From: a virus
Lineage: Duplodnaviria > Heunggongvirae > Uroviricota > Caudoviricetes
Direction: 5' to 3' (one strand)
Length of the DNA: 21,065 nucleotides
IMG/VR virus record: IMGVR_UViG_2718218228_000013
How positions within the stretch are numbered: position 1 is the stretch's first letter; each line of letters opens with the position of its first letter. Made by a program: the position numbers and the translations under genes. The notes under the pieces were generated by a model, which made no database searches, was not told the DNA's origin, and saw only the letters and a list, made by a program, of their open reading frames with translations. Positions 676 to 16,153 of this stretch are shown here, one piece after another.

Positions 676-1632
676 GTGACTAGTTATTCAAACTTTTCCA
701 ATCAAATAAAAGAAACCATCAATAATAAATTCGATCATGAAATTCATGATTGGGACATTATAAAAAACTCAATCACAACTTTAATAAATAAAAATATCCA
801 TGGTGCAGGTAGAAATATCGTTGATTTTATAGATTTAGGTAACTGGGATTTTATTTCAAACTTTTCCTTTGATGACTCTACAAGAAGACTTGAATTAGAG
901 TGGCACCCCAATGATAAATTCCATATATATATTGAGTCCGTTGTGTTTGTCGAGTTTAATGACACTATATATGCTTTCTTAAAGGGATACTATCACAATC
1001 AGTTATCTCTAAATAGAATATATAATACAAAATGCTCTTCATGTTCATTTGAAAACTCAGGTTCTTATATGGTAGACGTTTATAGAACGGTTAAAAGAGT
1101 AAATGAGACAATCCAGACCCCAAATATAAATTGCTATACTACATGTATTTTAACAAGGCCCGCAAATGGTCATGTTACATCTACAGGCTTCTCACGAAAC
1201 CTCATGGATGCGATAAATATTTCATTAGCAGAGCACAAAATAGCCTCTTTACATAATGAAGTCATGAGTATTGAGGAATATGATCGTGATTCTTTACAAG
1301 AGAAAGGAAATACTGCCAGGAGATATTTAGAATATATTCTCATGCTTGTTAATATTCGTATAATGCATTTAAACAACGTTCAATACCAAGAGCAAATGCT
1401 AGGTAGTTTAGTTTCTGTTATTGAGGCTCTGGACTATGAACCATTAATGAAAAATGATGTTGAAATTACAAAGGACATCCTTAATGCTTGCAGCCACCAC
1501 GGGGGGGTTAGAATTGAAAAGAAAGATGTAATTTTTTCTTTGGAAGTTATTGAAAACTTAATTAAAGCCATAAAGAAAACCGACATAAATAAATTACAAC
1601 TCGATGGGATGTTTAAATCAATTCAAAAATAA
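676..1632 (+). CDS. Hypothetical protein (318 aa), AT-rich cargo gene between left att repeat and primase
   Basis: Long ORF with GTG start; GAGG 7 nt upstream; much more AT-rich than the adjacent primase gene. No motif recognised. Confidence 0.6.
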   Translation: MTSYSNFSNQIKETINNKFDHEIHDWDIIKNSITTLINKNIHGAGRNIVDFIDLGNWDFISNFSFDDSTRRLELEWHPNDKFHIYIESVVFVEFNDTIYAFLKGYYHNQLSLNRIYNTKCSSCSFENSGSYMVDVYRTVKRVNETIQTPNINCYTTCILTRPANGHVTSTGFSRNLMDAINISLAEHKIASLHNEVMSIEEYDRDSLQEKGNTARRYLEYILMLVNIRIMHLNNVQYQEQMLGSLVSVIEALDYEPLMKNDVEITKDILNACSHHGGVRIEKKDVIFSLEVIENLIKAIKKTDINKLQLDGMFKSIQK

Positions 1633-1764: not shown

Positions 1765-4098
1765 TTATTTCGCTGCAAACTCATCGCATTTTGGCAACCA
1801 GTCAGCATTGCTTTCCTCTCTTAGGGCCAGATTAGTCTGCATTCCTTGATTGGTCCGTCGTTTCTCATACTGCAGCCCATATTCCTTGAGCATTAACGGT
1901 AGCCCCTTGCCAAACATGGTCAGACTGAGCGTATTTTTATAGCCGTTAGCCTCCATGTAGACCAGATAGGCATGGTAGAGGTAAGTTCGAGGCTGACGTG
2001 GAACAATATTAGCGTTCCCCATAAACATGCCCGTGGTGTCAGGTAGGACCTCAAGGTAGCCGCAAAAATCAAAAGCTGAATCAGCATCACGTTTGATGGT
2101 GAGCGCTTCATCGGAGTTCTGCTGTGACTGAAGCAATGTCCTGGCACTCATTGGGTCGCTGAAACGCTGCATAAGCTGGCGAACAATCACCGCTAGCTCA
2201 CTGGCAATTTTCTCTTTGAGCTGGGTATCGCGTTCCTCCGGGGCTATCTGGTCGGGGAAATGCAGGATCACCCTTCGGCGTGAAACTCCACCACTACGAT
2301 CAGTGAAGCGCATCGGATTATTGTTCACAGCCAGGATGACCGCCGGGATGTGGGTTGAATAGGCGTTCTGATATTTGGGATCAACGGATACCGCATCGCC
2401 GCCAGTGATGGCTTTTAGTCCGGCCCCGTCACCGCTCCACTTTTCCTGGTCGGGAAGTCGAATCAGTGAAAAACCTATTAACGCAGCTCGTTCTCTTGGC
2501 GACTCAAGCATTTCAATGGTTGCCGAGGTCGCGTTATCTTCACCCGCCAGCATGGTTGCTATTTCAGCAAGAATACTCTTTCCACTTCCGCCAGGGCCAG
2601 TGACCTCCAGAAACAGCTGCCAGTCATAACGGTTAGCCAGCACCATAAACAATGCAGCCAGAATAATGTCCCGTTTTTCAGGATTAAAACCTGCGGCACG
2701 ATCCAGCCAGCGCCAGAATGCCGGGGCATGGGTTTCCAGTGACTCACCGTCAACGGGCTGCGTGTAATCCACCTCGCACAGCGTACGTAACCAGTGCTTC
2801 TTATCGTGCGGGCTGAACAATCCTGTCCGGGTATCGAGCACACCGTTGCGAAATCCGATAAGTTGCCGCGCCGGATTCTGCTGTTGCGGAACGATCAGTT
2901 TGAGGGTTTCCACGAGAGACGCAATTTTCGCGGATGAAAAAGGTGCGTCGAGGCGCTGAAACAGCGCAGCGACATCACGGGCAAAATCGGCGTAATAGAT
3001 AACTTTCCAGGCCCCCGCCTCATAGCGTGAAAGGAGCTGCCCGTTCGGGTCTACTGCCAGTGAATTTTTATAGTGATCCACTACCCTCTGCGCTTTTTCG
3101 CTGACGCTCAGCGCGGTAAATTCAGCTTCGCTCATTGTGTCGAAGGGGCTGGCAACAGCTGGTTTTATTACTTCATGAATTGCATGCCGGGTGGCTTCTT
3201 CGCCGTTTTGCGTGAATGCATCGTTCCAGTCACCAAACACAGGCGGGAGCGCCATTGTGCAATTGCAGGCCCCGGTAACAGCTGCGCCCCTTGTTTGCCC
3301 CGCACCGTTGAGATCGCGGTCAGCAGCAATAATTATCTGGTGCGTTGGGTACTCACTGCAGGCAATGCTCGCCAGGGAAAGGAAATTGACGGACGAAAAG
3401 GCCACCATGACAGCATCGCCAGTCAGATAGTTGATAGTAAGTGCGGTGGCATATCCTTCCGCTATCCAGAGCCGTTTGGCTGCTTTGGCAGTACCTTCAA
3501 CCAGGTAAAAGGCATTCTTAACCTGACCGCCTTTAAGGAAGCATTTGCCCCCATTAGCGTTGATTAACTGCAGATTTACCAGCTCTCCATCTGCATACAA
3601 TGGAACGACAAGATCTCCCGCGCGAAATGCCACACCACCGACTTTATGCATAGCGGTTAATTCCCGGCAAGGCAGTGCAGGAAACCCTTTACTCGTCAGA
3701 TAGGCATTGCCAGTGGTCTGGCGGGACTTATCAAACAAACGGGCAGCCAGCACTGCTGCAGCTTTTCTCCCGTCCTCTTTTTCAGGAGAACCAGATTCAA
3801 GCATTCCCTGAGATACTGGCAGCAGGTTTCCGATAATGCCGTTTATTCTGTCTGCCGCTTCACTAATGCCTACATCCAGTACTTTACTTACAAGCGCCAG
3901 GCCATCACCTGCCCCGCACTGGTTACAGAACCACGTTCCCCGCCCTTCCTGGTCATCAAATCGAAAGCGGTCTTTCCCGGCACAGACCGGGCAGGGCTGG
4001 TGCCGATTTTTCAGTACATTTACGCCCAGCGCAGGTAAAATTCTTGACCAGTGACCCCGAGCTGCTTTCTCAGCCTGGCTAACTTTCATTCCTGACAT
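1765..4098 (-). CDS. P4 alpha-type DNA primase-helicase (777 aa)
   Basis: ORF 1765..4155; start placed at the internal ATG (4098) preceded by AAGGAGGG. N-terminal Cys-rich zinc-binding primase region (CPVCAGKDRFRFDD...WFCNQCG); Walker A-like GPGGSGKS. Length equals P4 alpha (777 aa). Confidence 0.92.
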   Translation of the reverse strand: MSGMKVSQAEKAARGHWSRILPALGVNVLKNRHQPCPVCAGKDRFRFDDQEGRGTWFCNQCGAGDGLALVSKVLDVGISEAADRINGIIGNLLPVSQGMLESGSPEKEDGRKAAAVLAARLFDKSRQTTGNAYLTSKGFPALPCRELTAMHKVGGVAFRAGDLVVPLYADGELVNLQLINANGGKCFLKGGQVKNAFYLVEGTAKAAKRLWIAEGYATALTINYLTGDAVMVAFSSVNFLSLASIACSEYPTHQIIIAADRDLNGAGQTRGAAVTGACNCTMALPPVFGDWNDAFTQNGEEATRHAIHEVIKPAVASPFDTMSEAEFTALSVSEKAQRVVDHYKNSLAVDPNGQLLSRYEAGAWKVIYYADFARDVAALFQRLDAPFSSAKIASLVETLKLIVPQQQNPARQLIGFRNGVLDTRTGLFSPHDKKHWLRTLCEVDYTQPVDGESLETHAPAFWRWLDRAAGFNPEKRDIILAALFMVLANRYDWQLFLEVTGPGGSGKSILAEIATMLAGEDNATSATIEMLESPRERAALIGFSLIRLPDQEKWSGDGAGLKAITGGDAVSVDPKYQNAYSTHIPAVILAVNNNPMRFTDRSGGVSRRRVILHFPDQIAPEERDTQLKEKIASELAVIVRQLMQRFSDPMSARTLLQSQQNSDEALTIKRDADSAFDFCGYLEVLPDTTGMFMGNANIVPRQPRTYLYHAYLVYMEANGYKNTLSLTMFGKGLPLMLKEYGLQYEKRRTNQGMQTNLALREESNADWLPKCDEFAAK

Positions 4099-4111
4099 TG
4101 TGCGGCCCTCC

Positions 4112-4435
4112 TTAGTGCAGCGCTGGTTTGTTGAGGTGACGGGAACAAAGTTCATCCATGACCGTCATTCCGAGCAGTGAGAGAACCGGACAGGCTTTAA
4201 GCGGCCCCGACTCCATCAGATCCGAAAGCAACGCGCAGGCAATTTCCAGCCCTCTTTGCTGCCCATGCTGGCGCAGATAGAACCCTTCCAGCTCGCGGGC
4301 TATGGCATCTTCAAGTTCAGCGAGCGTCAGGCCGGAATAACGTTCCTGATGATTGCTTAGAGCCAGCCAGGCACAGGCAACGGCACGGCGATACAGAGCG
4401 GCACGAAGTGCCAGAAGAGATTCACAGCATATCAT
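4112..4435 (-). CDS. Hypothetical protein (107 aa) upstream of primase
   Basis: ORF whose start overlaps the upstream gene stop (TGATG-type) and ends 13 nt before the primase start. No motif recognised. Confidence 0.5.
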
Positions 4436-4656
4436 CAGGCCACCTCCGCATTCATCAGGTCGTCATGGCAGCGTTGCACCACTCCATCCAGTTGCTCTGT
4501 CATCAGATAAATGAGGGAAACCAGTTGTTCGCATTGGGCACCTGCTGGCTTTTCATAACAGTCCTGCAGGGCTGCCATGCCAGTTACATACTCACCCACA
4601 TTGCGTAAATGTTTCAGCCTTACAACATCGTCGTAGGAAATCTCAAACTGGTTCAT
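4435..4656 (-). CDS. Hypothetical small protein (73 aa)
   Basis: ATG start with GGAGG 9 nt upstream; ATGA overlap with the upstream small gene. Confidence 0.5.
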
Positions 4657-4847
4657 AGCGTCACCTCCCCGGCAGGCAGCCGTGCAGAAAGGGAGAGTAC
4701 ATAATCTCGGACTAGCAAACGGCGCGCGGAACGCTCATCGCAGGAGACAGTGCGAAGCATACAGATGCGGGGGTGAGTGTCAGCACGGCGGATTGCGGCA
4801 AACACAAAGACATATTGCGGGTGTGACGGGGTGAGGATTGTAGCCAT
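4653..4847 (-). CDS. Small protein (64 aa), possible Icd/Kil-like host-interference protein
   Basis: Internal ATG of the 185-aa ORF, preceded by GGAGG with 8-nt spacer; sits where P4/P1 immunity regions carry kil/icd. Identity is a guess. Confidence 0.35.
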
Positions 4848-4879
4848 GATGGCAGCCTCCAATAAGTAGCGGTTATTGC

Positions 4880-4980
4880 TACCACCGGAAACGCCAATTT
4901 CACTGGTGGCAGCCCGAACGGGGTTGGCGTAACCGGCCTTATTGGAAACCGGCCAGCCCGAAGGCTGCCCCGCCCGGACT
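4880..4980 (-). ncRNA. Candidate c4/cI-type antisense immunity RNA region
   Basis: Hairpins (CAGCC-CGAA-GGCTG at 4954-4967) and three GGCAGCC/GGCTGCC motif copies in mutually complementary orientations, one overlapping the RBS of the downstream small gene (4851-4860). Boundaries approximate. Confidence 0.3.
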
Positions 4981-5206
4981 ACCATTATCTCGATAGAACC
5001 ATGGTGTAAGCATAAACACCACAGCCCTGAAAATGGTTGTGCCTGAGCTACGACGTAAAAAAAGACGCAAGGGGCGTCAATTGTCGCCAATAAGTTATAC
5101 GGAACGCCAATTCCGGCTGCCGATTTTGCGACAGCGGAAAAACTATACCTGGAAATGACGACAGTAAGCAAGCCAGAATAAAGGTATTTAATGTATGCAG
5201 GTATCA

Positions 5207-5467
5207 TCATGCATCACATCCCCGCCCACGGGCGCTGATGCGGTCCGCCATCCATGCGCTGACCTCAGACTGTGCCCAGGCGACATTTTTACCGCCAAGC
5301 GGGATCTGCTTCGGAAACGCATCGCGGCTGATCAGGTCGTAAACGGTCGAACGGGACAACCCGCATAAGTGCATCACCTCAGGCAGGCGTAAAAATCGCT
5401 CATGATGGTTCGATACAGGAAATAATGGCGCAGCAGGAGCTGGCGCAGACACAGAAATATTACGCAT
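5207..5467 (-). CDS. alpA: AlpA/Vis-family phage transcriptional regulator (excisionase-like HTH)
   Basis: [23 protein letters not shown]...[12 protein letters not shown] matches the AlpA family pattern; AGAGGG RBS upstream. Confidence 0.8.
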
Positions 5468-6400: not shown

Positions 6401-7153
6401 ATGACAATCCCAGAACAGAACAATAACCCGATCGTTGAAATTTCTATCCCTGTTTCGACGCAACAGGCGCTTGAGAAAGTGAATGCCACCAAATCTGCAT
6501 GGCTTGAAGCACGTCGTCAGCAAAAAGCGGCAGCGGATAATATTGCGACAATCCGCCAGCGCCGCGCTGAAATGGAAGCCACGACGAACGCCCTGAATGA
6601 GGAGTGGCGCACGCTATTTCGTGAAAGTCAGGGCGTAGTCTCAAAGGAAATGAAAAAACTGCGCACGGAAATTGCGCTGGGACGAGAAACGCTTGAGGAT
6701 TTTGATGAGCTGCTGGCGGCTCAGGAAAGCGAAAATGCACTTTTGCCGCAGGAGGCTGCGGAATTAGCCGGAAAGTATATCCACGCGCACGACACCCTTG
6801 TGGGTATTCGCGCAAAACAAATCTGGGAAGATTTTATGCAGTCGCATGGAAAAGCACTAATCCAGACACTAAGCCTGCTCAAATCAACAATGGGCAGGGA
6901 AGCCAGCGCAGTTGTCGGTGTGGTGCATTCAGTTAATGACCCGGACACACTGCTGAAAGATTTTATTCATAAACATATCACCAGACCGGCTCTGACTAAC
7001 GATGCGATGCCCGAACAGGACCCCGTGTTTAAACTGGCGGGAGTTGCCCCGGATTATGCGGCCCGTCTGGATTTCAGTAATAAACTCTCTCCAGCAGCTA
7101 TGCATAAAATGAAGGTTCGTCAGGAACGTGCTGAGAAGGAGAAAGCAGTATGA
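6401..7153 (+). CDS. sid: Sid-like capsid size determination (external scaffold) protein
   Basis: 250 aa (P4 Sid 244 aa); first gene of the late operon; internal similarity to the downstream Psu-like protein; stop overlaps the next start. Confidence 0.6.
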   Translation: MTIPEQNNNPIVEISIPVSTQQALEKVNATKSAWLEARRQQKAAADNIATIRQRRAEMEATTNALNEEWRTLFRESQGVVSKEMKKLRTEIALGRETLEDFDELLAAQESENALLPQEAAELAGKYIHAHDTLVGIRAKQIWEDFMQSHGKALIQTLSLLKSTMGREASAVVGVVHSVNDPDTLLKDFIHKHITRPALTNDAMPEQDPVFKLAGVAPDYAARLDFSNKLSPAAMHKMKVRQERAEKEKAV

Positions 7154-7701
7154 TGGCCCGAGTCACTCCAGACCAAGCGCTTATCAGTTTTAGAAATGCC
7201 CGTATTCTGTGGGCTGGACATAGTGAGAGCCGAAAAGCCGTTGAACAACAGATAGAATCACTCCTCACTGCCATGGAAAAACCAGCAGATTATGCTCGAC
7301 AGCTCGAATTACAGCGGGAACATCTGGATGTGCTGAAATGGCAAATTAACTGTGCTGCGCGCGAATGCATTTACTCGCAGCATCAACTGATGGAGGCCTG
7401 CACAGAAGACGCTCTCAGCAATTTTATGCAGGCGAATGGAGCAGCCCTGACATCTGCACTGGCTCCGTTCCTGAAGGGGCGCGGAGGGGTTGACGTTGCG
7501 TCCCGTATATTACGCAATGCTCTGGTTCGCCAGCTGGCAATAACACCGCCTGAAATTGCCGGGGATTATCGTATGATTCTGGATGAATCCGGTGTGATGC
7601 CTGACCCCATGATGGTTCGTGATTGCCAGAGCTCTTACACCCCTGCACAACAACTGCGCTTTCAGCAACGTCTGGATTACATTAACGGCATGCAGGAGTA
7701 A
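7150..7701 (+). CDS. psu: Psu-like polarity suppression / capsid decoration protein
   Basis: 183 aa; LKWQINCAARECIYS, FMQANGAALTSALAP and YTPAQQLRF resemble P4 Psu as I recall it. Confidence 0.7.
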   Translation: MMARVTPDQALISFRNARILWAGHSESRKAVEQQIESLLTAMEKPADYARQLELQREHLDVLKWQINCAARECIYSQHQLMEACTEDALSNFMQANGAALTSALAPFLKGRGGVDVASRILRNALVRQLAITPPEIAGDYRMILDESGVMPDPMMVRDCQSSYTPAQQLRFQQRLDYINGMQE

Positions 7702-7706
7702 TATTA

Positions 7707-7979
7707 ATGGCACTTAAATGTCCCGAATGCGGTACGACGGCACACGCCAGAACCTCCGCCTATGAAGCACCATCGGTTAAACGCTCATGGTATCAGTGCC
7801 AGAATCTTGAATGTTCCTACACATTTACCGCACTGGAAAGTGTGGATACGATAATCATGAAGCCCCGGCGCAATGAACAGGAATCAGAGAAAGCACAAAT
7901 GCCGGAAAAACAACAGCAAACTCTCAATCGCTATGGCTCCGCGTCAAAGCTGTCAAGCCGTCAGCAAATTCCTGTCTGA
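7707..7979 (+). CDS. Ogr/Delta-family zinc-finger late transcriptional activator
   Basis: CPECGTTAHARTS...YQCQNLECSYTF, the classic Ogr/Delta Cys4 motif; 90 aa. Confidence 0.9.
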   Translation: MALKCPECGTTAHARTSAYEAPSVKRSWYQCQNLECSYTFTALESVDTIIMKPRRNEQESEKAQMPEKQQQTLNRYGSASKLSSRQQIPV

Positions 7980-7999
7980 TTAGCAAAAAAAGCCCACGT

Positions 8000-8027
8000 A
8001 ATCCCGGTCCAGTACTGGGATTTTTTA
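8000..8027 (+). terminator. Rho-independent terminator after the late operon
   Basis: GC-rich palindrome AATCCCGGTCCAGTACTGGGATT followed by TTTTTT, about 20 nt after the Ogr/Delta stop. Confidence 0.6.
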
Positions 8028-8332
8028 CGCCTTTTCCCTGGCTGGCCTGAGAGCGCATGAGTGCATGTCTATAGCGCATGAAAACGCATGATTCTCATGC
8101 ACCATTTTTGACGCGAAAGCCCTTGTGTGGTGGCTTCTGAGACGATTTGCGGAATGCATGAAAACCAGTCTGTTAAGCGAAGCGAGCAGGCGTGGGGGGC
8201 TGCGCGCGCTAAGGGGTTAGATTATAAAATATCAAACGCCGGTGAGATCCATTATTGTGGAACCACCCGAAGGAAGTGTAGAGGCGAAAGTACCCAAAAT
8301 AATTTTGCAAATTATTTAGAAATGAACTGAGC

Positions 8333-8358
8333 GCTCGAAACGAAATATAATTTCGAGC
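8333..8358 (-). terminator. Hairpin downstream of the minus-strand hotspot cassette (candidate terminator)
   Basis: GCTCGAAA-N10-TTTCGAGC inverted repeat about 30 nt after the stop of the last cassette gene; flanked by T-rich sequence. Confidence 0.4.
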
Positions 8359-8388
8359 ACCCCAATTAGCAGTTATATTTTTAATGTA

Positions 8389-8955
8389 TTAAACAGGATA
8401 AAAACCAGAGCTTCCATTCTTATTTAAGTTATGGATTTTATTTGCATCATTAATTTTTATTTGGAACGTCGGACCTTTATTCTCAAGAATTACAATCTGG
8501 AAATTATAGTCCCTTTTGATTAATGCGTGATAAAATGAATCACTGAGACTGACGCTATTAACATCCGATAGAGAACCCCCTCTATCTTTATCAAAGTGCG
8601 TCACTAATGGACTATCAAGCACAACAAATCCAATGAATGGATTCCCTTTTCTTGATAAAAATTCCGCAAAGCAAATGGTAAATATAGCATGCATTACTGC
8701 ACGGGTACCTTTACCAAACATTCCTCGGCGTTTCCCATTGATATTAAAGTCATATGTATCTTCGTCAAATCGCACTTTGTTATCTTTAGAATTTTCAAAA
8801 TTTATATCATTCAAAAAGTCTTGCATCGCTATTTCTATATCATACAAATCAGCTACTGTTAAGGAGTCAAAGTCCTCGGCGGAGTATTTAAGTTCGTCAA
8901 CATCATCTTCTTTATCTTGTAATGAAGATAGAATGCTATGTTTTGTGTGATCCAT
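8389..8955 (-). CDS. ABC/SMC-like ATPase C-terminal lobe (Walker B-like FVVLDSP), hotspot cassette gene 6
   Basis: 188-aa ORF; hydrophobic strand + D (PFIGFVVLDSP); ATG overlaps upstream stop as TAATG; could be a frameshifted continuation of the upstream ORFs. Confidence 0.55.
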   Translation of the reverse strand: MDHTKHSILSSLQDKEDDVDELKYSAEDFDSLTVADLYDIEIAMQDFLNDINFENSKDNKVRFDEDTYDFNINGKRRGMFGKGTRAVMHAIFTICFAEFLSRKGNPFIGFVVLDSPLVTHFDKDRGGSLSDVNSVSLSDSFYHALIKRDYNFQIVILENKGPTFQIKINDANKIHNLNKNGSSGFYPV

Positions 8956-9545
8956 TAAAAGATTGTCTTTATATTCATAAAGTGATTCAAGAGATGAATG
9001 TATTGTTTTATATTTTTATCTTCTAACGTCTTAAAATCACTTTTTTCTGATTGATAAATTTCATTAACATCATTTTTTCTTAACATAATTAATTCATGTT
9101 CGCGAACATTAGATCCGATTGATTCAATTAATCCTTTCAGCTGGCTTTTGATTTTCAATTTTTCTGCATTACACGACAAAAAACAATCATCATATGATAT
9201 TTCATTTTCTTTTTTTTGCGGTGTATTACAGAACTCACAATAAATATCTGCAAAATTATTTAAATAGAAATTCGCCTGTGATACAACATCTATTCTTTGT
9301 AGATCTATAAAGTATTGGTCTTTAAGAAGACTAAATCTTTCAATGAGTAATGATAAGTATTTTTCCCTGTCACTGATTGAATATAATTCATCACTTAACT
9401 CTTTTAATAATTGCTTCTTATCATCAAGTGCATCAACAATACCTTTCAATATATCTTTCGATGATTCAATATCTTGCTCTACTTTCTCAAGTTCTCTTGA
9501 AACAATGACTTGATCATATTCAGGATAAATTAATTGCGCTTTCAA
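8955..9545 (-). CDS. Coiled-coil segment with central CxxC (CEFC), hotspot cassette gene 5
   Basis: 196-aa K/E/L-rich heptad-like sequence; same frame as the upstream Walker A ORF, separated only by one TAA (9576-9578). Confidence 0.5.
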   Translation of the reverse strand: MKAQLIYPEYDQVIVSRELEKVEQDIESSKDILKGIVDALDDKKQLLKELSDELYSISDREKYLSLLIERFSLLKDQYFIDLQRIDVVSQANFYLNNFADIYCEFCNTPQKKENEISYDDCFLSCNAEKLKIKSQLKGLIESIGSNVREHELIMLRKNDVNEIYQSEKSDFKTLEDKNIKQYIHLLNHFMNIKTIF

Positions 9546-9575
9546 TTCCTCATAAATATTTGCAATTTGATTTTT

Positions 9576-10226
9576 TTAAAAATATCTTGCTTTTTTATTT
9601 GGTTTTTCTGCTAAGGAGTTAGTATCATCTCTCTGAGTTAAAAGGAATTTAAATTCAGACTTTCTTTTTGTCTCCTCGCTAGGAATATCAGAAAGAATTA
9701 ACGACTTCTCAGTTAACACTCTTAATTCATCAATACAAAAAAATTCAAAAACATTATTAAGATTAAATTTATGAAGAGTATTACTTAAGTTTGTTCTTAC
9801 TTTAGCCTCTTTGAAATTCAACCTACCATAAAAGTATGATGAAAAACTCTTTTTAGACGAAGCACTTTTGGAAAAAACCATCAACAGATTAGCTTCACTA
9901 ACATTTTCAATGCTCGAATCATATAATCTGTAATGGGCGCTATCCTGAAGAGACCTCTCAATTGTCATTACCCTACCTTGAAAATTAAATTCCAGATAGG
10001 CTAAATCATAACCTTGAGCATGATCGATATCTTTATTTTTTAGTTTTTCACTCCCTAATAAATATCGAATCAAATAATATATGTATGTTTTTCCAGAGTC
10101 AGAACCACCATATAAAATAGTCAATTTAGAACCAAATTCAATTATAGCATCTAATTTATTGAATCCGGTTACCTTTATTTTTCTGAACGTAAAAAAATTG
10201 TCATTCATAATTAAATTCCATATCAT
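9576..10226 (-). CDS. ABC/SMC-like ATPase N-terminal lobe (Walker A GGSDSGKT), hotspot cassette gene 4
   Basis: LTILYGGSDSGKTYI P-loop in a RecF/SMC-like N-terminal context; ORF opens at TTG 10235, ATG starts at 10226 or 10208; ends at in-frame TAA. Confidence 0.6.
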   Translation of the reverse strand: MIWNLIMNDNFFTFRKIKVTGFNKLDAIIEFGSKLTILYGGSDSGKTYIYYLIRYLLGSEKLKNKDIDHAQGYDLAYLEFNFQGRVMTIERSLQDSAHYRLYDSSIENVSEANLLMVFSKSASSKKSFSSYFYGRLNFKEAKVRTNLSNTLHKFNLNNVFEFFCIDELRVLTEKSLILSDIPSEETKRKSEFKFLLTQRDDTNSLAEKPNKKARYF

Positions 10227-10659
10227 ATTTGCCAATTTTATTTTTTATAATTGATTGCAACTGCTCATCAGGAATATCACTATATAACTTAACCACCAAA
10301 TTTATATTATGCTCCATCTGCGCAACATATTCATTATGTAGAGAATTTGTAAATGCATATGTTTTTTCAGAAGCTTTATATACAAAACCACGATGTGTAT
10401 AAATTTTTGAGGCTAGTTCATAGCCTTGCAACAAAGCCAATGATTCTAAAACAATCTCTCGTTTTAGGGCTAACTGAGCATCTCTACGGGGTATTGGAGG
10501 ATGAAGACTAATCTCTTCAGGTAAAAAATCCTTAAGATTTACTAAAATAAAATCAAAACAAATAAGCCGTTCAAGGCTTAATGAAGAAGGATAAATAGCG
10601 ACGAGCACTTTCGCCATTCGACATGCCACTTCTAAACTTGAATTATAAATTCTAACCAT
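10201..10659 (-). CDS. Hypothetical small protein (about 152 aa), hotspot cassette gene 3
   Basis: ATG at 10659 overlaps upstream stop as TAATG; GGTGA 4 nt upstream; stop overlaps start region of gene 4. No motif recognised. Confidence 0.5.
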   Translation of the reverse strand: MVRIYNSSLEVACRMAKVLVAIYPSSLSLERLICFDFILVNLKDFLPEEISLHPPIPRRDAQLALKREIVLESLALLQGYELASKIYTHRGFVYKASEKTYAFTNSLHNEYVAQMEHNINLVVKLYSDIPDEQLQSIIKNKIGKYDMEFNYE

Positions 10660-11276
10660 TATCTCACCGTCCAAATTACTTCACCATCATTAACCAAATG
10701 ATGGCATATTCCTTTTTTATCATTTGCTTCACATATTTTTGATAGTACTGAATGTGCAATTGGTGTCAGAACAGCCTGCTTCAAGACTGCATTACACCTA
10801 ATAAATGCATAATTATGGTCTTCATAAAAGACGGGTTCAATTGAAGATGAAATGTAACATTTCAATGCTTTGAATACATCATCTTTAAATACTTCGCGGA
10901 CAAAAACCTCAAGCGAAGATGCAAAATAAAAATCATTTCTACTATTATTAAAGTGTCGTCTGTATGGATCATCAAGCTCTAAGAAAGAACTATAAGTTTT
11001 ATTTCCATGCTCTGAATAGGCTTGAAGCAGTGCATTAACATATACAGACTCTTTTTTTGAATTGTATGTTGGAATTTCATTTGGAGGGATTCTCACGACA
11101 TACAGCTCGTTAAAGTACTTAAAATAAAGGTGTGTATTTGCAATATCATTTAAAATCAATGATAAGGGTAGAGAGTAAAAAATACTAAAATCAAAATCCT
11201 CAATATATTTTTTTATTTCATCATCTAATGGAATATCAATCTTTTTAGTTATTTTTTTGAAATTGCTGAATCCCAT
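10659..11276 (-). CDS. Hypothetical protein (205 aa), hotspot cassette gene 2; possibly C-terminal part of a frameshifted gene 1-2 fusion
   Basis: AT-rich ORF with one candidate start; overlaps gene 1 by 28 nt across an A7 tract where a 1-nt indel would fuse the frames. Confidence 0.5.
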   Translation of the reverse strand: MGFSNFKKITKKIDIPLDDEIKKYIEDFDFSIFYSLPLSLILNDIANTHLYFKYFNELYVVRIPPNEIPTYNSKKESVYVNALLQAYSEHGNKTYSSFLELDDPYRRHFNNSRNDFYFASSLEVFVREVFKDDVFKALKCYISSSIEPVFYEDHNYAFIRCNAVLKQAVLTPIAHSVLSKICEANDKKGICHHLVNDGEVIWTVR

Positions 11277-11665
11277 GAATCAAGGACTGCTTTTTTAAGC
11301 TCGTTTTTATTTTTCAATAAATTAGAAAATGTAGTAGATAAATCATAGGGTGCCACAAAAAAGTACTTCTGAGGGATGGGATAATCACCATTCAGAGTAA
11401 AATAGATAAGTTTTCCAAACTCAACTACAACATCAGAGAACCCTAAACTTTTTTTGTACAGTTTGCATTGATAATTATCCCAAGAATAACCTTCTACGTT
11501 AGGATCCGATTTATATCCAACAACGTCTCTACCTTTATCTCCAGCTCCTCCCAAACGTTCGCTCCACGGGTAATCATCTGATTTACAGACAATAAGCCAA
11601 TCATGGACAAATACCCCCCATTGTTCATCATCCCATGTCAATATTTCCGAAAGTGGTTGAGACAC
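11249..11665 (-). CDS. Mrr-type PD-(D/E)xK restriction-endonuclease-like domain protein (138 aa), hotspot cassette gene 1
   Basis: GGAGDKGRDVVGY ... YQCKLYKK matches the Mrr catalytic pattern; GTG start with AAGGAG 7 nt upstream, 3 nt after the int stop. Confidence 0.55.
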   Translation of the reverse strand: MSQPLSEILTWDDEQWGVFVHDWLIVCKSDDYPWSERLGGAGDKGRDVVGYKSDPNVEGYSWDNYQCKLYKKSLGFSDVVVEFGKLIYFTLNGDYPIPQKYFFVAPYDLSTTFSNLLKNKNELKKAVLDSWDSAISKK

Positions 11666-11668
11666 AAA

Positions 11669-12850
11669 TTAACTCCTTTTTAGTCTTTCAAATATCAAAT
11701 TACTGTACCAGTCCATCATAGACTTCCTTCCACTAAAATATTGAGCATGGTTATAAGTCCCCCTAATAGAATTTTTATCTACATGAGCCAACTGGATTTC
11801 AATCCAAGCACTCTCAAAACCTTGCTCATGCAGGATTGTAGAAAGGGTATGACGAAAACCATGTCCAGTGACTTTTCCTCCATACCCAATACGCTTAATG
11901 GCTTGATTTATACTCGCTTCGCTCATTGGCCTATTCGGATCGTTCCGCCCTGGAAAAACATAACGATAGTTCCCTGTCATGATCTTGAGTTCATTGAGTA
12001 AATCTACCGCTTGAGATGATAAGGGCACAAGATGTGGCCTACGCATTTTCATCCTTTCAGCAGGAATTTCCCAAATAGCGTTATCCAGATCAAATTCTTG
12101 CCATAATGCCGCGCGTAATTCGATGGTTCTCACACCCGTAATCATCAGTAATTTCGTGGCTATCTGGACAAGCTTACTCCCGGAGTAACCCTCTAAGGCA
12201 CGTAGAAAATCAGGTATCTCATCAGCTTTTAGGAATGGGAAATGATTGGATTGGTGTACTTCGAGAGCGCTGGAGAGATCAGCCGCAGGATTGTACTCCG
12301 CCCTACCCGTTGCAATTGCGTAGCGAAACACTTCGGAGCAACGCTGCCGCACTTTGCGCATTTTCTCCAACGCACCACGTTTCTCAATTTTACGCAGAAC
12401 GTTCAGCAGCTCTAGCGGTTTAATCTCTCCCACAGGCCTTGTTCCGACATAAGGAAAAATGTCGTTCTTAAACGCTTCCATGATGTCTGATGCATATCCC
12501 GCCGACCATTTAGCAGATTTAAGTTGATGCCACTCTCTGGCTATCTTTTCGAAGGCGTTCTCTGACTCTGTTTGCATAGCTAGCTTTTGCTCTTTTCGAA
12601 CCTCACTAGGGTTCTTTCCTTCTGCCACAAGTTTTCGAGCTTCATCACGACGGGAACGAGCATCGGCAAGGGTGATCGTTGGGTAAACACCAAGCGAGAT
12701 CATTTTGGGTTTGCCGGCATAGCGATAGCGGAACCGCCAACTCTTGCTTCCATTAGGTTCTATAAGTAATGACAACCCTAGCCCATCTCCAAATGTATAG
12801 GCTTTAGCTTCAGGCTTAGCGCGGCGAATCTGCATATCGTTTAAAGGCAT
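11669..12850 (-). CDS. int: P4-type tyrosine integrase
   Basis: MPLNDMQIRRAKPEAKAYTFGDGLGL N-terminus and C-terminal HGFRHT...Y catalytic region; start placed at ATG 12850 (ORF opens at 12901). Confidence 0.92.
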   Translation of the reverse strand: MPLNDMQIRRAKPEAKAYTFGDGLGLSLLIEPNGSKSWRFRYRYAGKPKMISLGVYPTITLADARSRRDEARKLVAEGKNPSEVRKEQKLAMQTESENAFEKIAREWHQLKSAKWSAGYASDIMEAFKNDIFPYVGTRPVGEIKPLELLNVLRKIEKRGALEKMRKVRQRCSEVFRYAIATGRAEYNPAADLSSALEVHQSNHFPFLKADEIPDFLRALEGYSGSKLVQIATKLLMITGVRTIELRAALWQEFDLDNAIWEIPAERMKMRRPHLVPLSSQAVDLLNELKIMTGNYRYVFPGRNDPNRPMSEASINQAIKRIGYGGKVTGHGFRHTLSTILHEQGFESAWIEIQLAHVDKNSIRGTYNHAQYFSGRKSMMDWYSNLIFERLKRS

Positions 12851-13405: not shown

Positions 13406-13771
13406 GTGCAGGATGTCATGTTAGGAGCGATAGAAAAACGCTTTGGCGATAAAGTACCGGAACAGTCCATCCAGTGGCTGACAGATAACGGTTCAGCGTA
13501 TAGAGCGCATGAAACACGGCAGTTCGCCAGAGAGTTGAATCTGGAGCCCTGCACAACGGCAATCAGCAGTCCTCAGAGTAATGGAATTGCAGAAAGGTTC
13601 GTGAAAACGATGAAGGAAGACTACATCGCGTTCATGCCGAAACCGAATGTAAGAACGGCATTGCATAATCTTGCAGTGGCGATCGAACATTACAATGAAA
13701 ACCATCCGCACAGTGCGTTGGGTTATCGCTCTCCGCGAGAATATCGACGTCAGCGGGTAACGTTAACTTAA
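13406..13771 (+). pseudogene. IS2-like (IS3 family) transposase OrfB C-terminal fragment; IS remnant about 13130-13810
   Basis: [11 protein letters not shown]...[16 protein letters not shown]...[14 protein letters not shown] is the DDE-core C-terminus typical of IS2 OrfB; no upstream OrfA or N-terminal OrfB in frame. Confidence 0.7.
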
Positions 13772-13812: not shown

Positions 13813-14556
13813 TCAGATTCCCTGGTGAGTAAGAATTTTACTTTCTGAACTCCTCTGAGAGTATTGACTTGGAGAAACACCAAAATAACGTCTAAATACA
13901 TAAGTAAAGTATGAGACACTGGCATAACCACAGACCTTAGCTACTTTACTAATAGGATAACAACGAGTGCTGAGTAAATATTCAGCCATTTGCATCCTCT
14001 CATCAAGTATGATCTTACTGAATGATACCCCCTCTTCTTTCAATTTCCTCTTTAGTAAACTTTCGCTGAGATATAATCTTGATGATATATCCTTAAGACG
14101 CCATGGTGCAGATAAATCCGTATGAATAATCGTTTTAACTTTAGCCCCTGTGCTTTTCAAACATCCAAACAGAAATACTCCAAATTGTTTTTCAGAAGAA
14201 AATGCAGAGAGACATGTAAAAGCAATAGACTCATCAAAAATTTCTATGTATTCAGCACAGTGATTAGCCCAACTAATTAATCCTTTAATTAAACTGAAGT
14301 CAGCAAAGTTTATTTTTAAATAAGATGGATATTCCCTACAATCAGAAATATCCCTTAAGTTATTAGCTTTCAAATAGCGACTAATAAACTCAGCGCCAAA
14401 ATCCGCCACTATCACTCTTTCAGGATATGTCAGGAAAAAATCTCTAGAGCTAGAGTCGACAAGTACAGATGAACCTCTCTCCAGAAACACACTCTCTTTT
14501 CCGAAATAAACATCAAAGGACTCCAAAATCAATATAACTGAACATGTAGTTGCCAT
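13813..14556 (-). CDS. AraC-family transcriptional regulator (AppY/EnvY-like)
   Basis: C-terminal AraC-type HTH (LKDISSRLYLSESLLKRKL...YFTYVFRRYFGVSPSQY); AT-rich. Confidence 0.8.
   Translation of the reverse strand: MATTCSVILILESFDVYFGKESVFLERGSSVLVDSSSRDFFLTYPERVIVADFGAEFISRYLKANNLRDISDCREYPSYLKINFADFSLIKGLISWANHCAEYIEIFDESIAFTCLSAFSSEKQFGVFLFGCLKSTGAKVKTIIHTDLSAPWRLKDISSRLYLSESLLKRKLKEEGVSFSKIILDERMQMAEYLLSTRCYPISKVAKVCGYASVSYFTYVFRRYFGVSPSQYSQRSSESKILTHQGI

Positions 14557-15283: not shown

Positions 15284-16153
<870 letters not shown>

What the first reader, a model, noticed from the sequence alone, without database searches (positions are those of the whole stretch)
8389..11665. AT-rich six-ORF cassette in the P4 hotspot: Mrr-type nuclease plus Rad50/SMC-like ATPase with a CxxC coiled coil
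Between the Ogr/Delta gene and int, where P4-like satellites are known to carry variable anti-phage cargo, lies a co-oriented, tightly packed, very AT-rich cassette. Gene 1 has an Mrr catalytic-type pattern (GDKGRDVVGY ... YQCK). Genes 4-5-6 together look like one roughly 600-aa mini-SMC/Rad50 ATPase: a Walker A head (GGSDSGKT), a roughly 200-aa coiled coil with a central CEFC, and a Walker B-like head (FVVLDSP). Genes 2 and 3 have no recognisable motif. The order nuclease effector, small protein, SMC-like ATPase resembles Lamassu / ABC-three-component systems, but that assignment is inference from motifs; it could equally be a divergent or undescribed family.
Basis: partly seen in the sequence, partly recalled or inferred. 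Interest (0 to 1): 0.9.

Follow-up and report, generated by a model that had tools for sequence, protein, structure and literature searches.

The report
Decayed Lamassu defence cassette in satellite
The six AT-rich ORFs are the broken remains of an ordinary three-gene Lamassu anti-phage system (Mrr-type nuclease LmuA, small LmuC, Rad50-like LmuB) in the cargo slot of the P4-like satellite Sp2 of E. coli O157:H7. The cassette has already been published as "Lamassu-var", so this is a known system in a decayed state.

Summary
Six co-oriented minus-strand ORFs (8389-11665, 31% GC) lie between ogr/delta and int of a P4-like satellite. The window matches E. coli O157:H7 prophage Sp2.

The Lamassu / ABC-3C reading is correct; the "undescribed family" alternative is not.
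- Genes 1+2 are one LmuA: a Mrr-type PD-(D/E)xK nuclease domain plus CTD6.
- Gene 3 is LmuC (MC2).
- Genes 4+5+6 are one 606-aa LmuB with Walker A, a single CxxC hook at the coiled-coil apex, and a short-Lamassu Walker B (VVLDS).

Intact three-gene versions exist in Proteus mirabilis (89% nt identity). They also exist in Pantoea alhagi and two metagenome contigs, at the same int-to-ogr slot of a P4-like satellite.

Against these, the window has three lesions:
- a 1-nt loss in an A-run in lmuA;
- a 1-nt loss in an A-run in lmuB;
- a TTA>TAA nonsense codon in lmuB, specific to O157:H7.

Other lineages add further lesions, and none of the twelve sequences aligned base by base or read as annotation restores a frame. 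I conclude it is a pseudogenised short Lamassu-Mrr system.

The cassette was already reported as "Lamassu-var" (Domainator, NAR 2024), cloned from an O55:H7 strain carrying an equally broken allele. That paper does not mention the breaks. Novelty is low; the useful addition is that the weak published phenotype came from a decayed copy.

The parts
11249..11665 (-). lmuA fragment 1 (138 aa, GTG start with an AAGGAG Shine-Dalgarno 8 nt upstream, 3 nt after the int stop). It holds the Mrr-type PD-(D/E)xK nuclease domain: GAGDKGRDV at 11522-11548 and QCK at 11462-11470.
   Evidence: PADLOC LmuA PDLC03852, E=3.6e-39, model positions 10-140. G42, D43, G45, D47, Q66, C67, K68, E82 and K85 are invariant in homologues. 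Pfam Mrr_cat hits 10 of 31 homologues.
11252..11258 (-). Frameshift lesion 1 in lmuA: an A7 run where intact orthologues have 8 bases (TCA AAG AAA ATA in Pantoea, TCC AAT AAA ATA in Proteus). The 1-nt loss ends the frame at TAA 11249-11251.
   Evidence: DNA alignment to L006, L007 and L008 shows a single 1-nt gap at 11256-11260. The lesion is shared by the O55:H7 and O157:H7 sequences aligned base by base.
10659..11276 (-). lmuA fragment 2 (205-aa ORF; its first ~8 residues are out-of-frame artefact). It holds the middle region and C-terminal domain CTD6, which is the oligomerisation/sequestration domain in solved LmuA.
   Evidence: Pfam CTD6 PF20282 E=7.7e-30. PADLOC LmuA PDLC03852 E=3.9e-44, model positions 141-333, continuing fragment 1. 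There is no Shine-Dalgarno before its ATG.
10201..10674 (-). lmuC, intact (152 aa from the ATG at 10659, the start RefSeq annotates; the mechanical ORF runs from 10674). It overlaps the lmuA stop and overlaps the lmuB start by 8 nt.
   Evidence: Pfam MC2 PF20288 E=6e-30. PADLOC LmuC PDLC03871 E=2.5e-36. It is 91% identical to the Proteus protein and 82% to the Pantoea protein.
9576..10235 (-). lmuB fragment 1 (residues 1-210 from the ATG at 10208): N-terminal ABC/SMC head with Walker A GGSDSGKT at 10086-10109.
   Evidence: PADLOC LmuB PDLC03863 E=8.4e-50, model positions 3-199 of 610. Pfam AAA_23 and SMC_N match weakly.
9576..9578 (-). Lesion 2: nonsense codon TAA replacing Leu211 (TTA) of LmuB. 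It is present in the O157:H7 alleles examined; the three O55-type alleles examined keep TTA.
   Evidence: The parts before and after it are in the same reading frame. 9577 is T in the window and A in DEC5D, TB182A and 2013C-4465. RefSeq annotates the fused 394-aa product in O55:H7 DEC5D and TB182A.
8955..9545 (-). lmuB fragment 2 (196-aa ORF from a TTG; residues 222-398 in frame, then 19 out-of-frame residues). It holds both coiled-coil arms and the CxxC zinc-hook motif CEFC at 9228-9239.
   Evidence: PADLOC LmuB PDLC03863 E=1.6e-21, model positions 231-412. C324 and C327 are invariant in 17 and 23 homologues. In the AF2 model they sit in the loop between helices 233-318 and 339-439.
9013..9017 (-). 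Frameshift lesion 3 in lmuB: an A5 run (GAT AAA AAT ATA) where Proteus has A6 (GGT AAA AAA TAT).
   Evidence: A 1-nt gap at 9018-9019 against L006, L007 and L008. The lesion is shared by the O55:H7 and O157:H7 sequences aligned base by base.
8389..8955 (-). lmuB fragment 3 (residues 419-606): C-terminal head with the GKGxRA signature-like motif and Walker B VVLDSP at 8608-8625. Its ATG is an internal Met of the intact protein and overlaps the fragment 2 stop (TAATG).
   Evidence: PADLOC LmuB PDLC03863 E=5.1e-37, model positions 428-608. Pfam DUF3732 matches weakly. G499, K500, G501, R503, D532, S533 and P534 are invariant.
8329..8362 (-). Terminator-like hairpin 27 nt downstream of the lmuB stop.
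   Evidence: Consensus scan: 13-bp stem with 6 GC pairs. This is a pattern match only.
11669..12850 (-). P4-type tyrosine integrase, the flank of the hotspot. Its stop lies 3 nt before the lmuA GTG, so the cassette is probably co-transcribed with int (inference).
   Evidence: Pfam Arm-DNA-bind_3, Phage_int_M and Phage_integrase. It is 92% identical to the Pantoea satellite integrase. No promoter signal above the shuffle expectation.
7707..7979 (+). Ogr/Delta zinc-finger activator, the other flank of the hotspot. It converges on the cassette.
   Evidence: Pfam Ogr_Delta E=1e-16. The Sakai record annotates this region as 'prophage Sp2, P4-like phage'.

Best explanation
The cassette is a pseudogenised short (type II, LmuA-LmuC-LmuB order) Lamassu anti-phage system with a Mrr-type nuclease effector. 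It sits in the variable cargo slot between int and ogr/delta of the P4-like satellite Sp2 in the E. coli O55:H7/O157:H7 lineage.

For the intact ancestor, I infer the mechanism from solved and tested Lamassu systems; it was not shown for this one. Two LmuB protomers (Rad50-like ABC heads, short antiparallel coiled coil, one CxxC zinc hook) and one LmuC hold a single LmuA by its C-terminal domain, which keeps the nuclease monomeric and inactive. The complex senses DNA ends or phage replication intermediates. It then releases LmuA, whose C-terminal domains oligomerise and bring nuclease domains together. DNA is cut and infection is aborted.

In this window the system is broken in three places, all shown directly by sequence comparison. 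LmuA is split between its nuclease domain and its C-terminal domain by a 1-nt loss in an A-run. LmuB is cut at residue 211 by a nonsense codon. LmuB is cut again after residue 398 by a 1-nt loss in an A-run. Canonical Lamassu defence is therefore most likely lost, and the DNA is drifting as a remnant that has not been replaced or deleted.
For: Identity of the genes:
- PADLOC LmuA (E=3.6e-39 and 3.9e-44), LmuC (2.5e-36) and LmuB (8.4e-50, 1.6e-21, 5.1e-37) tile one model each, colinearly, across the fragments.
- Pfam gives CTD6 and MC2.
- A profile of the LmuB family hits the solved Lamassu LmuB chains 9hqu, 9uxl and 9ny5, then SMC and Rad50.
- AF2 models of intact orthologues (pLDDT 92.9 and 86.0) match solved LmuA and LmuB chains first by Foldseek.

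The intact state exists elsewhere. Proteus mirabilis L006 8543-11821 and Pantoea alhagi L007 carry uninterrupted 335-aa, 152-aa and 606-aa genes. L007, L008 and L009 place them between int and ogr/delta of a P4-like satellite.

Lesions:
- The only net indels against the intact copies are two 1-nt losses in A-runs, plus TTA>TAA at 9576-9578.
- Further independent lesions occur in sub-lineages: -1 at 9210 in ATCC 43889, CEC01302, TR01 and FSIS11705876; -1 at 9041 in the O55-type alleles of DEC5D, TB182A and 2013C-4465; +1 at 9736 in 2013C-4465; -1 at 9665; -1 at 11621; an IS1203-family IS3-like element within the matched region; and partial deletions.
- None of the sequences examined restores a frame.
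- Substitutions between the O157 and O55 alleles are 7 nonsynonymous to 1 synonymous.
- The secondary starts of fragments 2 and 6 have no Shine-Dalgarno, whereas the native lmuA start has a strong one.

Literature:
- All three Lamassu components are required for defence, and Lamassu-Mrr has been validated (Millman et al., bioRxiv 10.1101/2022.05.11.491447).
- Effector sequestration and tetramerisation are described in 10.1101/2025.03.14.643221 and PMC12663957.
Against: A clone of the O55:H7 allele of this cassette was reported to reduce plaque size of T2, T4, T6 and RB69 (PMC11754643), so some residual or non-canonical activity cannot be excluded.

The six ORFs have stayed long, and the cassette is retained at 99% identity or more in 309 of 5,426 complete E. 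coli genomes. Retention in a young clonal lineage is expected even for neutral DNA.

Rad50-type heads can reassemble from separately expressed N- and C-terminal halves (my own knowledge of Rad50 structural work), so a split LmuB is not necessarily inert.

No expression or phenotype data for the O157:H7 allele were available to me.

The mechanistic steps were established for Cap4-type LmuA, not for Mrr-type LmuA.
Confidence: 0.85

Rival explanations
1. The split cassette is still a working, if weakened or altered, defence system. The fragments (free Mrr nuclease domain, free CTD, LmuC and three LmuB pieces) would be translated separately and reassemble non-covalently.
For: The published clone of the O55:H7 allele gave smaller plaques for T-even phages (PMC11754643). 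The LmuA break falls in the loop between the nuclease domain and the rest of the protein (helix 120-138, then loop 139-148 in the model). Fragment 6 starts at an internal Met that overlaps the preceding stop (TAATG), which could allow translational coupling. All fragments remain open in most genomes.
Against: The LmuB breaks are not clean domain splits. Residues 211-221 and 399-418 of the coiled coil are lost or replaced by out-of-frame residues. Different lineages carry additional, different truncations of the same gene. Substitutions are 7 nonsynonymous to 1 synonymous. In tested Lamassu systems every component and the ATPase site are needed, and activation needs CTD-driven oligomerisation of the nuclease, which a detached nuclease domain cannot undergo. 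The published insert ends exactly at the lmuA start codon (record position 4,120,474), so it lacks the native ribosome-binding site and any upstream promoter. The phenotype was plaque size only, seen at the highest dilutions.
Confidence: 0.1
2. The A-run frameshifts are recoding or phase-variation sites. Transcriptional or ribosomal slippage at A7 and A5, or reversible tract-length changes, would give low, regulated amounts of full-length, potentially toxic LmuA and LmuB.
For: Both shared frameshifts lie in homopolymeric A-runs. Lamassu over-expression is toxic (PMC12663957), so down-tuning is conceivable.
Against: The tracts are short (7 and 5 A). Intact orthologues read straight through with interrupted runs such as AAG AAA ATA, so the slippery tract is not a conserved feature. 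In the eleven other E. coli sequences aligned base by base, neither tract differs in length from the window. The O157:H7 nonsense codon and the extra lineage-specific frameshifts cannot be rescued by slippage. AT-rich genes (31% GC) are full of A-runs, so mutation at such sites is the expected mode of decay.
Confidence: 0.03
3. The breaks are sequencing or assembly errors, and the real genome carries an intact three-gene Lamassu.
For: Homopolymer indels are a common error class in long-read assemblies. Some one-off indels in single assemblies (for example 11621 and 9665) could be such errors.
Against: In 10 of the 11 other E. coli sequences aligned base by base, neither A-run differs from the window; in the eleventh (FSIS11705876) neither is listed as differing, but its aligned length does not account for its listed deletions. 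These are independent assemblies made with different technologies and include the Sanger-era Sakai record, which annotates lmuB as a pseudogene and lmuA as two ORFs. The remaining records were compared only at the summary level: 310 records at 99% identity or more. The nonsense codon is a substitution. The -1 at 9210 is shared by four assemblies.
Confidence: 0.02

Closest known systems
'Lamassu-var' of E. coli Psu-integrase hotspots (Domainator paper, Nucleic Acids Res 2024, PMC11754643)
   Same: It is the same cassette. The cloned region CP038295 4,116,517-4,120,474 is E. coli O55:H7 TB182A, running from ogr/delta to the first base of gene 1. It has the same ORF layout and differs from the window at 10 positions. 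It was reported as the commonest hotspot cluster (259 of 910), flanked by a Psu only 31% identical to P4 Psu. That fits the O157:H7 clone, which makes up 309 of 5,426 genomes here.
   Different: The paper presents it as a functional variant related to type II Lamassu. Its main text contains none of the words frameshift, pseudogene or truncation. Here it is shown to be a broken copy of an ordinary three-gene system. The O55 allele has its own extra frameshift at 9041 but keeps TTA at 9577.
Lamassu-Mrr (Millman et al. 2022; experimentally validated from E. coli O150:H5 SE15)
   Same: An SMC-like LmuB, LmuC, and an LmuA whose N-terminal effector is a Mrr-family endonuclease. All three parts are required, and the phenotype is abortive infection.
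   Different: The SE15 system is not detectably similar at DNA level; the blastn 'distant' search found only the O157/O55 clone. I did not compare the proteins. The present copy is inactivated.
Short type II Lamassu with solved structures: Vibrio cholerae DdmABC / LmuABC (9ny5, 9nyg, 9uxh, 9uxl) and Salmonella enterica LmuACB (9hqu, 9hqx)
   Same: Gene order is effector, small protein, SMC-like ATPase. The LmuB fold is shared (Foldseek E=4e-15 to 3e-12), and a profile of the LmuB family matches these chains by sequence (E=1.4e-17). LmuA has a similar two-domain layout. The Walker B is of the short-Lamassu form hhhhD[Q/S/T/E] (here VVLDS).
   Different: The effector here is Mrr-type, not Cap4; no sequence-level PDB hit was found for the LmuA profile. 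LmuB here has one CxxC zinc hook, whereas the V. cholerae LmuB has none. Sequence identity to the solved LmuB chains is 13-15%.
ABC-three-component (ABC-3C) systems (Krishnan, Burroughs, Iyer and Aravind 2020; Pfam CTD6 and MC2)
   Same: RefSeq and Pfam name gene 2 'ABC-three component system protein' (CTD6) and gene 3 'middle component 2'. The architecture of ABC ATPase, middle component and effector with a CTD is the same.
   Different: None in kind. ABC-3C is the comparative-genomics name for the same assemblage that includes Lamassu.
Rad50/SbcC (CxxC-hook SMC-like DNA repair ATPases)
   Same: A split ABC head, an antiparallel coiled coil and an apical CxxC. Rad50 chains are the next-best structural matches after LmuB. 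Lamassu has been proposed to derive from SbcCD.
   Different: The coiled coil is much shorter (about 85-100 residues per arm). The partners are LmuA and LmuC rather than Mre11/SbcD. The Walker B lacks the catalytic Glu (D-S).

Membership tests
Lamassu (short / type II) | SMC-like LmuB with Walker A Gx4GK[S/T] | tested here: met
   GGSDSGKT at 10086-10109. G34, S36, G39 and K40 are invariant in the family. PADLOC LmuB E=8.4e-50.
Lamassu (short / type II) | Short-Lamassu Walker B hhhhD[Q/S/T/E] in the C-terminal head | tested here: met
   VVLDSP at 8608-8625, with D532, S533 and P534 invariant. The motif definition comes from PMC12663957.
Lamassu (short / type II) | Short antiparallel coiled coil between the head halves, with 0-2 CxxC zinc-hook motifs | tested here: met
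   The AF2 model of the 88%-identical intact orthologue has helices 233-318 and 339-439, with invariant C324 and C327 in the apical loop. Zinc binding itself was not tested.
Lamassu (short / type II) | LmuB fold resembles solved LmuB | tested here: met
   The top Foldseek PDB hits are 9uxh_F, 9hqx_B, 9hqu_A, 9nyg_B and 9ux7_A (E=4e-15 to 7e-12), ahead of Rad50 and SMC. By sequence, the family profile hits 9hqu at E=1.4e-17.
Lamassu (short / type II) | Small LmuC gene between or next to lmuA and lmuB | tested here: met
   Gene 3: PADLOC LmuC E=2.5e-36 and Pfam MC2 E=6e-30. It is intact and overlaps both neighbours.
Lamassu (short / type II) | LmuA is an N-terminal effector domain plus a conserved C-terminal domain | tested here: met
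   PADLOC LmuA tiles genes 1+2. CTD6 matches gene 2. The AF2 model of the orthologue hits the LmuA chains 9nxx, 9ny1, 9ny5_A and 9uxh_C first (E=1.4e-4 to 1.7e-2; TM about 0.3 because of the relative orientation of the two domains).
Lamassu (short / type II) | All three genes intact and expressed as single polypeptides (needed for function) | tested here: not met
   lmuA is split at residue 138/139. lmuB is cut at residue 211 (TAA) and after residue 398 (frameshift). It is therefore a member by descent but not a functional member.
Lamassu (short / type II) | Confers phage or plasmid defence by abortive infection, dependent on the ATPase and the effector | not testable with these tools
   The only report is a weak plaque-size effect of the broken O55:H7 allele, without mutant controls (PMC11754643).
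Mrr-type (PF04471) PD-(D/E)xK nuclease effector | Sequence match to the Mrr_cat profile | tested here: inconclusive
   The window's gene 1 gives no Pfam hit at E<=1. Ten of 31 full-length homologues match Mrr_cat, best E=1.6e-6, and only one matches Cap4_nuclease weakly.
Mrr-type (PF04471) PD-(D/E)xK nuclease effector | Catalytic core D ... (D/E/Q)xK on a restriction-endonuclease fold | tested here: met
   GxGDxGxD and QCK are invariant. The model shows an alpha-beta core (strands 34-37, 48-51, 62-67, 100-105) and matches Cap4, MspJI, FokI and Avs3 nuclease domains. Catalysis was not tested.
P4-like satellite defence hotspot (Rousset et al. 2022) | Variable cargo between psu/delta and int of an element with the P4 core genes | tested here: met
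   Primase alpha, DUF5375, Ash, AlpA, a Sid-like protein, Psu, Ogr/Delta and int were all found. Sakai annotates the region as 'prophage Sp2, P4-like phage'. Psu is divergent from P4 Psu (31% according to PMC11754643).

The most novel reading that the evidence does not exclude
The broken cassette may not be inert. One or more fragments (for example LmuC plus LmuB pieces, the free CTD, or the untethered Mrr nuclease domain) could interfere weakly with T-even phages. That would be a naturally split Lamassu acting by a route other than the canonical sequester-and-release mechanism, and it would explain the published plaque-size phenotype.
Probability: 0.1. Interest if true: 0.45.

Novelty: already known. 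Interest (0 to 1): 0.22.

Why it matters
This matters mainly as a correction and a caution.

First, the commonest "Lamassu variant" in E. coli satellite hotspots owes its count to one clone (O157:H7/O55:H7), and it is a pseudogenised copy. Its published weak phenotype should not be read as the activity of this Lamassu clade. The intact Proteus or Pantoea cassettes, or a three-point repair, are the right constructs to test.

[quoted passage not shown] This locus is a clear counter-example.

Third, gene callers missed the GTG start of lmuA in the intact Proteus and Pantoea loci. They called 145-aa and 201-aa products instead of 335 aa. This can make complete systems look as if they lack an effector.

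Tried and rejected
- Pfam and NCBIfam on gene 1 alone gave nothing. The Mrr assignment rests on homologues and on fold instead.
- A sequence profile of LmuA against the PDB gave only noise, with E>0.06. The fold search was needed.
I modelled the intact database orthologues P0038 (67% identical to LmuA) and P0001 (88% identical to LmuB) instead, so the models are of orthologues, not of the window's proteins.
- ARAGORN found no tRNA in the window. The attachment-site tRNA was therefore not located, and Sp2 abuts prophage Sp1.
- The promoter scan gave no signal above the shuffle expectation (22 found against 19.1 expected). Co-transcription with int is only an inference.
- The blastn 'distant' search of E. 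coli genomes found no diverged E. coli relatives, so the relation to the SE15 Lamassu-Mrr could not be measured.
- I asked whether the 'Lamassu variant' tested in the 2026 P4/P2 preprint is this cassette. Its supplement names it LmuBC_SMEK, and its first ~100 nt share no 11-mer with the window, so it is probably a different system.
- I considered whether all three lesions fall at domain boundaries, which would suggest a 'designed' split. This is true for LmuA, but the LmuB breaks remove coiled-coil residues 211-221 and 399-418. I rejected it as evidence for function.
- Supplementary files of the Domainator paper are not held.

Full report
**1. What is there**

The window is E. coli O157:H7 DNA. 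Positions 8300-11700 are 100% identical to strain 350 (NZ_CP018243) and differ at one base from strain Sakai, where the region is annotated 'prophage Sp2, P4-like phage'.

The element carries the full P4-type core:
- primase alpha (1765-4155);
- DUF5375;
- Ash (4653-5210);
- AlpA (5207-5467);
- a Sid-like Psu-family protein (6401-7153);
- Psu (7150-7701);
- Ogr/Delta (7707-7979);
- a tyrosine integrase (11669-12850).

All quoted motifs are present. The cassette is 31% GC, against 45-52% for the satellite core.

**2. What the ORFs are**

PADLOC profiles identify the ORFs and show that they are fragments.
- Gene 1 matches LmuA model PDLC03852 at positions 10-140 (E=3.6e-39). Gene 2 continues the same model at 141-333 (E=3.9e-44).
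- Gene 3 is LmuC (E=2.5e-36).
- Genes 4, 5 and 6 match LmuB model PDLC03863 at 3-199, 231-412 and 428-608 of 610 (E=8.4e-50, 1.6e-21, 5.1e-37).

Pfam independently gives CTD6 of ABC-3C systems for gene 2 (E=7.7e-30) and Middle Component 2 for gene 3 (E=6e-30). It also gives weak AAA_23/SMC_N matches for gene 4 and a weak DUF3732 match for gene 6.

**3. Intact relatives and the lesions**

I searched with conceptually repaired proteins. This found full-length LmuB proteins of 606 aa (88% identity in Proteus mirabilis, 76% in Pantoea alhagi) and full-length LmuA proteins of 334-337 aa.

The encoding loci carry uninterrupted lmuA (335 aa, GTG start), lmuC (152 aa) and lmuB (606 aa). In Pantoea alhagi (L007) and two metagenome contigs (L008, L009) the cassette sits in the same slot: int, then lmuA-lmuC-lmuB, then ogr/delta, psu and sid. 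The integrase there is 92% identical to the window's. In Proteus (L006) the cassette is 89% identical in DNA but sits in a different island, next to smpB.

DNA alignment to these intact copies shows only two net indels in the window:
- a 1-nt loss in an A-run in lmuA, which is A7 at 11252-11258 here, where the intact copies read TCA AAG AAA ATA or TCC AAT AAA ATA;
- a 1-nt loss in an A-run in lmuB, which is A5 at 9013-9017 here, where Proteus has A6.

The gene 4/5 boundary is not a frameshift. Both parts are in one frame, separated by TAA at 9576-9578. The O55-type alleles examined (DEC5D, TB182A and 2013C-4465) have TTA (Leu) there, and RefSeq annotates the fused 394-aa product in DEC5D and TB182A.

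In protein terms:
- LmuA is cut at residue 138/139, between the nuclease domain and the rest.
- LmuB is cut at residue 211.
- LmuB is cut again after residue 398, and the third fragment restarts at the internal Met419.

**4. Structure-level checks**

*LmuA.* The model of P0038 has pLDDT 92.9. Its best PDB matches are the solved LmuA chains 9nxx, 9ny1, 9ny5_A, 9uxh_C and 9uxi. These are followed by PD-(D/E)xK nucleases: Cap4, MspJI, FokI and the Avs3 nuclease. The invariant residues are GxGDxGxD, QCK and ExxK. Ten of 31 homologues match Pfam Mrr_cat, against one weak Cap4 match. 'Mrr-type' is therefore reasonable, although the window's own fragment gives no Pfam hit.

*LmuB.* The model of P0001 has pLDDT 86.0. 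It shows an N-terminal head, helix 233-318, a loop carrying the invariant C324-x-x-C327, helix 339-439 and a C-terminal head. That is a Rad50-like hook architecture. Its best PDB matches are the solved Lamassu LmuB chains 9uxh_F, 9hqx_B, 9hqu_A and 9nyg_B, followed by Rad50 and SMC heads. A sequence profile agrees.

The Walker B (VVLDS) is the form described for 'short' Lamassu, hhhhD[Q/S/T/E]. A single CxxC lies within the 0-2 range described for that group (PMC12663957).

**5. Is it decayed or a working split system?**

Several lines point to decay.

(a) Every E. coli copy is from one clone. The cassette occurs in 309 of 5,426 complete genomes, all at 99% identity or more. The eleven other E. 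coli sequences I aligned base by base show no difference from the window at either A-run, in both O55:H7 and O157:H7.

(b) Lineages have added different further lesions:
- the nonsense codon at 9577 (O157:H7);
- -1 at 9210, shared by ATCC 43889, CEC01302, TR01 and FSIS11705876;
- -1 at 9041, in the O55-type alleles (DEC5D, TB182A, 2013C-4465);
- +1 at 9736, in 2013C-4465;
- -1 at 9665 and -1 at 11621, each in a single assembly and possibly assembly errors;
- an IS1203-family IS3-like element within the matched region in M1300706002 (annotation only; the insertion point was not located);
- partial deletions in strains 4276 and F3113.

None of the examined sequences restores a frame.

(c) Substitutions between the O157 and O55 alleles are 7 nonsynonymous to 1 synonymous. 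The numbers are small, but this is the direction expected without purifying selection. The window itself has Gly at the nearly invariant Glu17 of LmuA.

(d) The native starts have ribosome-binding context, AAGGAG before the lmuA GTG and GGTGAG before lmuC. The secondary ATGs of fragments 2 and 6 have none.

(e) In tested Lamassu systems all three proteins and the ATPase site are required. Activation depends on the LmuA C-terminal domain driving oligomerisation of the nuclease, which a detached nuclease domain cannot undergo.

Against decay, a clone of this cassette reduced T-even plaque size (see section 6). Also, Rad50-type heads can reassemble from separate halves; that point rests on my own knowledge. 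I put the decay reading at 0.85.

**6. What is already known**

The Domainator paper (Nucleic Acids Res 2024, PMC11754643) extracted Psu-integrase hotspots from 2,718 E. coli genomes. Its most frequent cluster (259 of 910, 3-9 CDSs, flanking Psu 31% identical to P4 Psu) was 'related to Lamassu systems' according to PADLOC.

The authors synthesised CP038295 4,116,517-4,120,474 as 'Lamassu-var' and saw smaller plaques for T2, T4, T6 and RB69, visible only at the highest dilutions. That record is E. coli O55:H7 TB182A. The interval runs from the first base of ogr/delta to the first base of gene 1. The ORFs are the same broken set: LmuA in two pieces, and LmuB as 394-aa and 188-aa pieces. The cassette sequence is identical to DEC5D.

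The paper's main text contains no mention of frameshifts, pseudogenes or truncation. The insert also stops at the lmuA start codon, so it excludes the native ribosome-binding site and anything upstream.

Other relevant literature:
- Lamassu with an Mrr effector was defined and validated by Millman et al..
- Mrr is listed among short-Lamassu effectors in PMC12663957.
- RefSeq already names genes 2 and 3 as ABC-three-component proteins.

The finding is therefore already known in kind, and this very locus has been published. What my analysis adds is that it is a decayed copy, that intact orthologues exist, and where each lesion lies.

**7. Mechanism**

Shown here:
- the identity and order of the three genes;
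- the conserved catalytic and nucleotide-binding motifs;
- the hook-type coiled coil in the model;
- the three lesions.

Inferred from solved Cap4-type Lamassu systems: in the intact ancestor, a LmuB dimer and LmuC sequester one LmuA by its CTD. DNA ends or phage replication intermediates trigger release. LmuA then tetramerises and its nuclease cuts DNA, aborting infection. Whether a Mrr-type LmuA is activated in the same way is untested.

For the window, the predicted state is loss of canonical function.

**8. Verdict**

The cassette is not a new family. Interest is low (0.22). Its value lies in reinterpreting a published weak phenotype, and in providing a clear example of a pseudogenised defence system persisting in a satellite hotspot. 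A recent survey found such cases to be rare.

Noticed in passing
window 15329-16153 (+): A 274-aa ORF in the neighbouring lambda-like prophage Sp1 remnant matches the PADLOC defence model PD-T4-3 almost end to end (E=2.3e-140), and PHROG 5356 of unknown function. Sakai annotates it as a hypothetical protein (ECs_0285). It looks like a second, apparently intact, defence gene a few kb from the decayed Lamassu.
   Followed up: partly
window 676-1632 (+), within the AT-rich stretch 1-1700: A 318-aa ORF (ECs_0304 in Sakai) lies just beyond the primase, at the other end of the satellite, in a 32% GC segment. It has no match in Pfam, PADLOC, PHROGs or NCBIfam-type annotation. It may be a second foreign cargo gene of unknown function.
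   Followed up: partly
L006 8543-9550 and L007 8543-9550: In the intact Proteus and Pantoea loci the deposited gene calls give LmuA as only 145 aa and 201 aa, because the 335-aa ORF starts with GTG. In L008 and L009 the full 335 aa is called. Such truncated calls can make complete Lamassu systems look effector-less in automated surveys.
   Followed up: yes
window 11616: The window and strain 350 have C here (codon GGG, Gly17 of LmuA). Ten other E. coli sequences aligned base by base (Sakai among them) have T (GAG, Glu), and Proteus and Pantoea also encode Glu. Glu is nearly invariant at this position in the family. This is a private nonsynonymous change in an already broken gene.
   Followed up: yes
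window 13406-13771 and 13813-14556: At the Sp2/Sp1 junction there is an IS3-family transposase fragment (ISEc48 partial in the Sakai annotation) and an AraC-family regulator gene. No tRNA gene is detectable anywhere in the window, so the satellite's attachment-site tRNA is not adjacent here.
   Followed up: no
window 7985-8025 and 8329-8362: There is a GC-rich hairpin flanked by A- and T-runs just after ogr/delta, which looks like a bidirectional terminator. A second terminator-like hairpin lies just after the lmuB stop. About 300 bp of 42-50% GC non-coding DNA lies between them.
   Followed up: no
L006 12100-13122: In Proteus mirabilis a 340-aa ORF with no Pfam hit directly follows the intact lmuB. 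The island also carries HsdM, NUDIX and AAA_33 kinase genes and lies next to smpB. This is a defence-island context quite different from the P4-like satellite, which shows that the cassette moves between element types.
   Followed up: no
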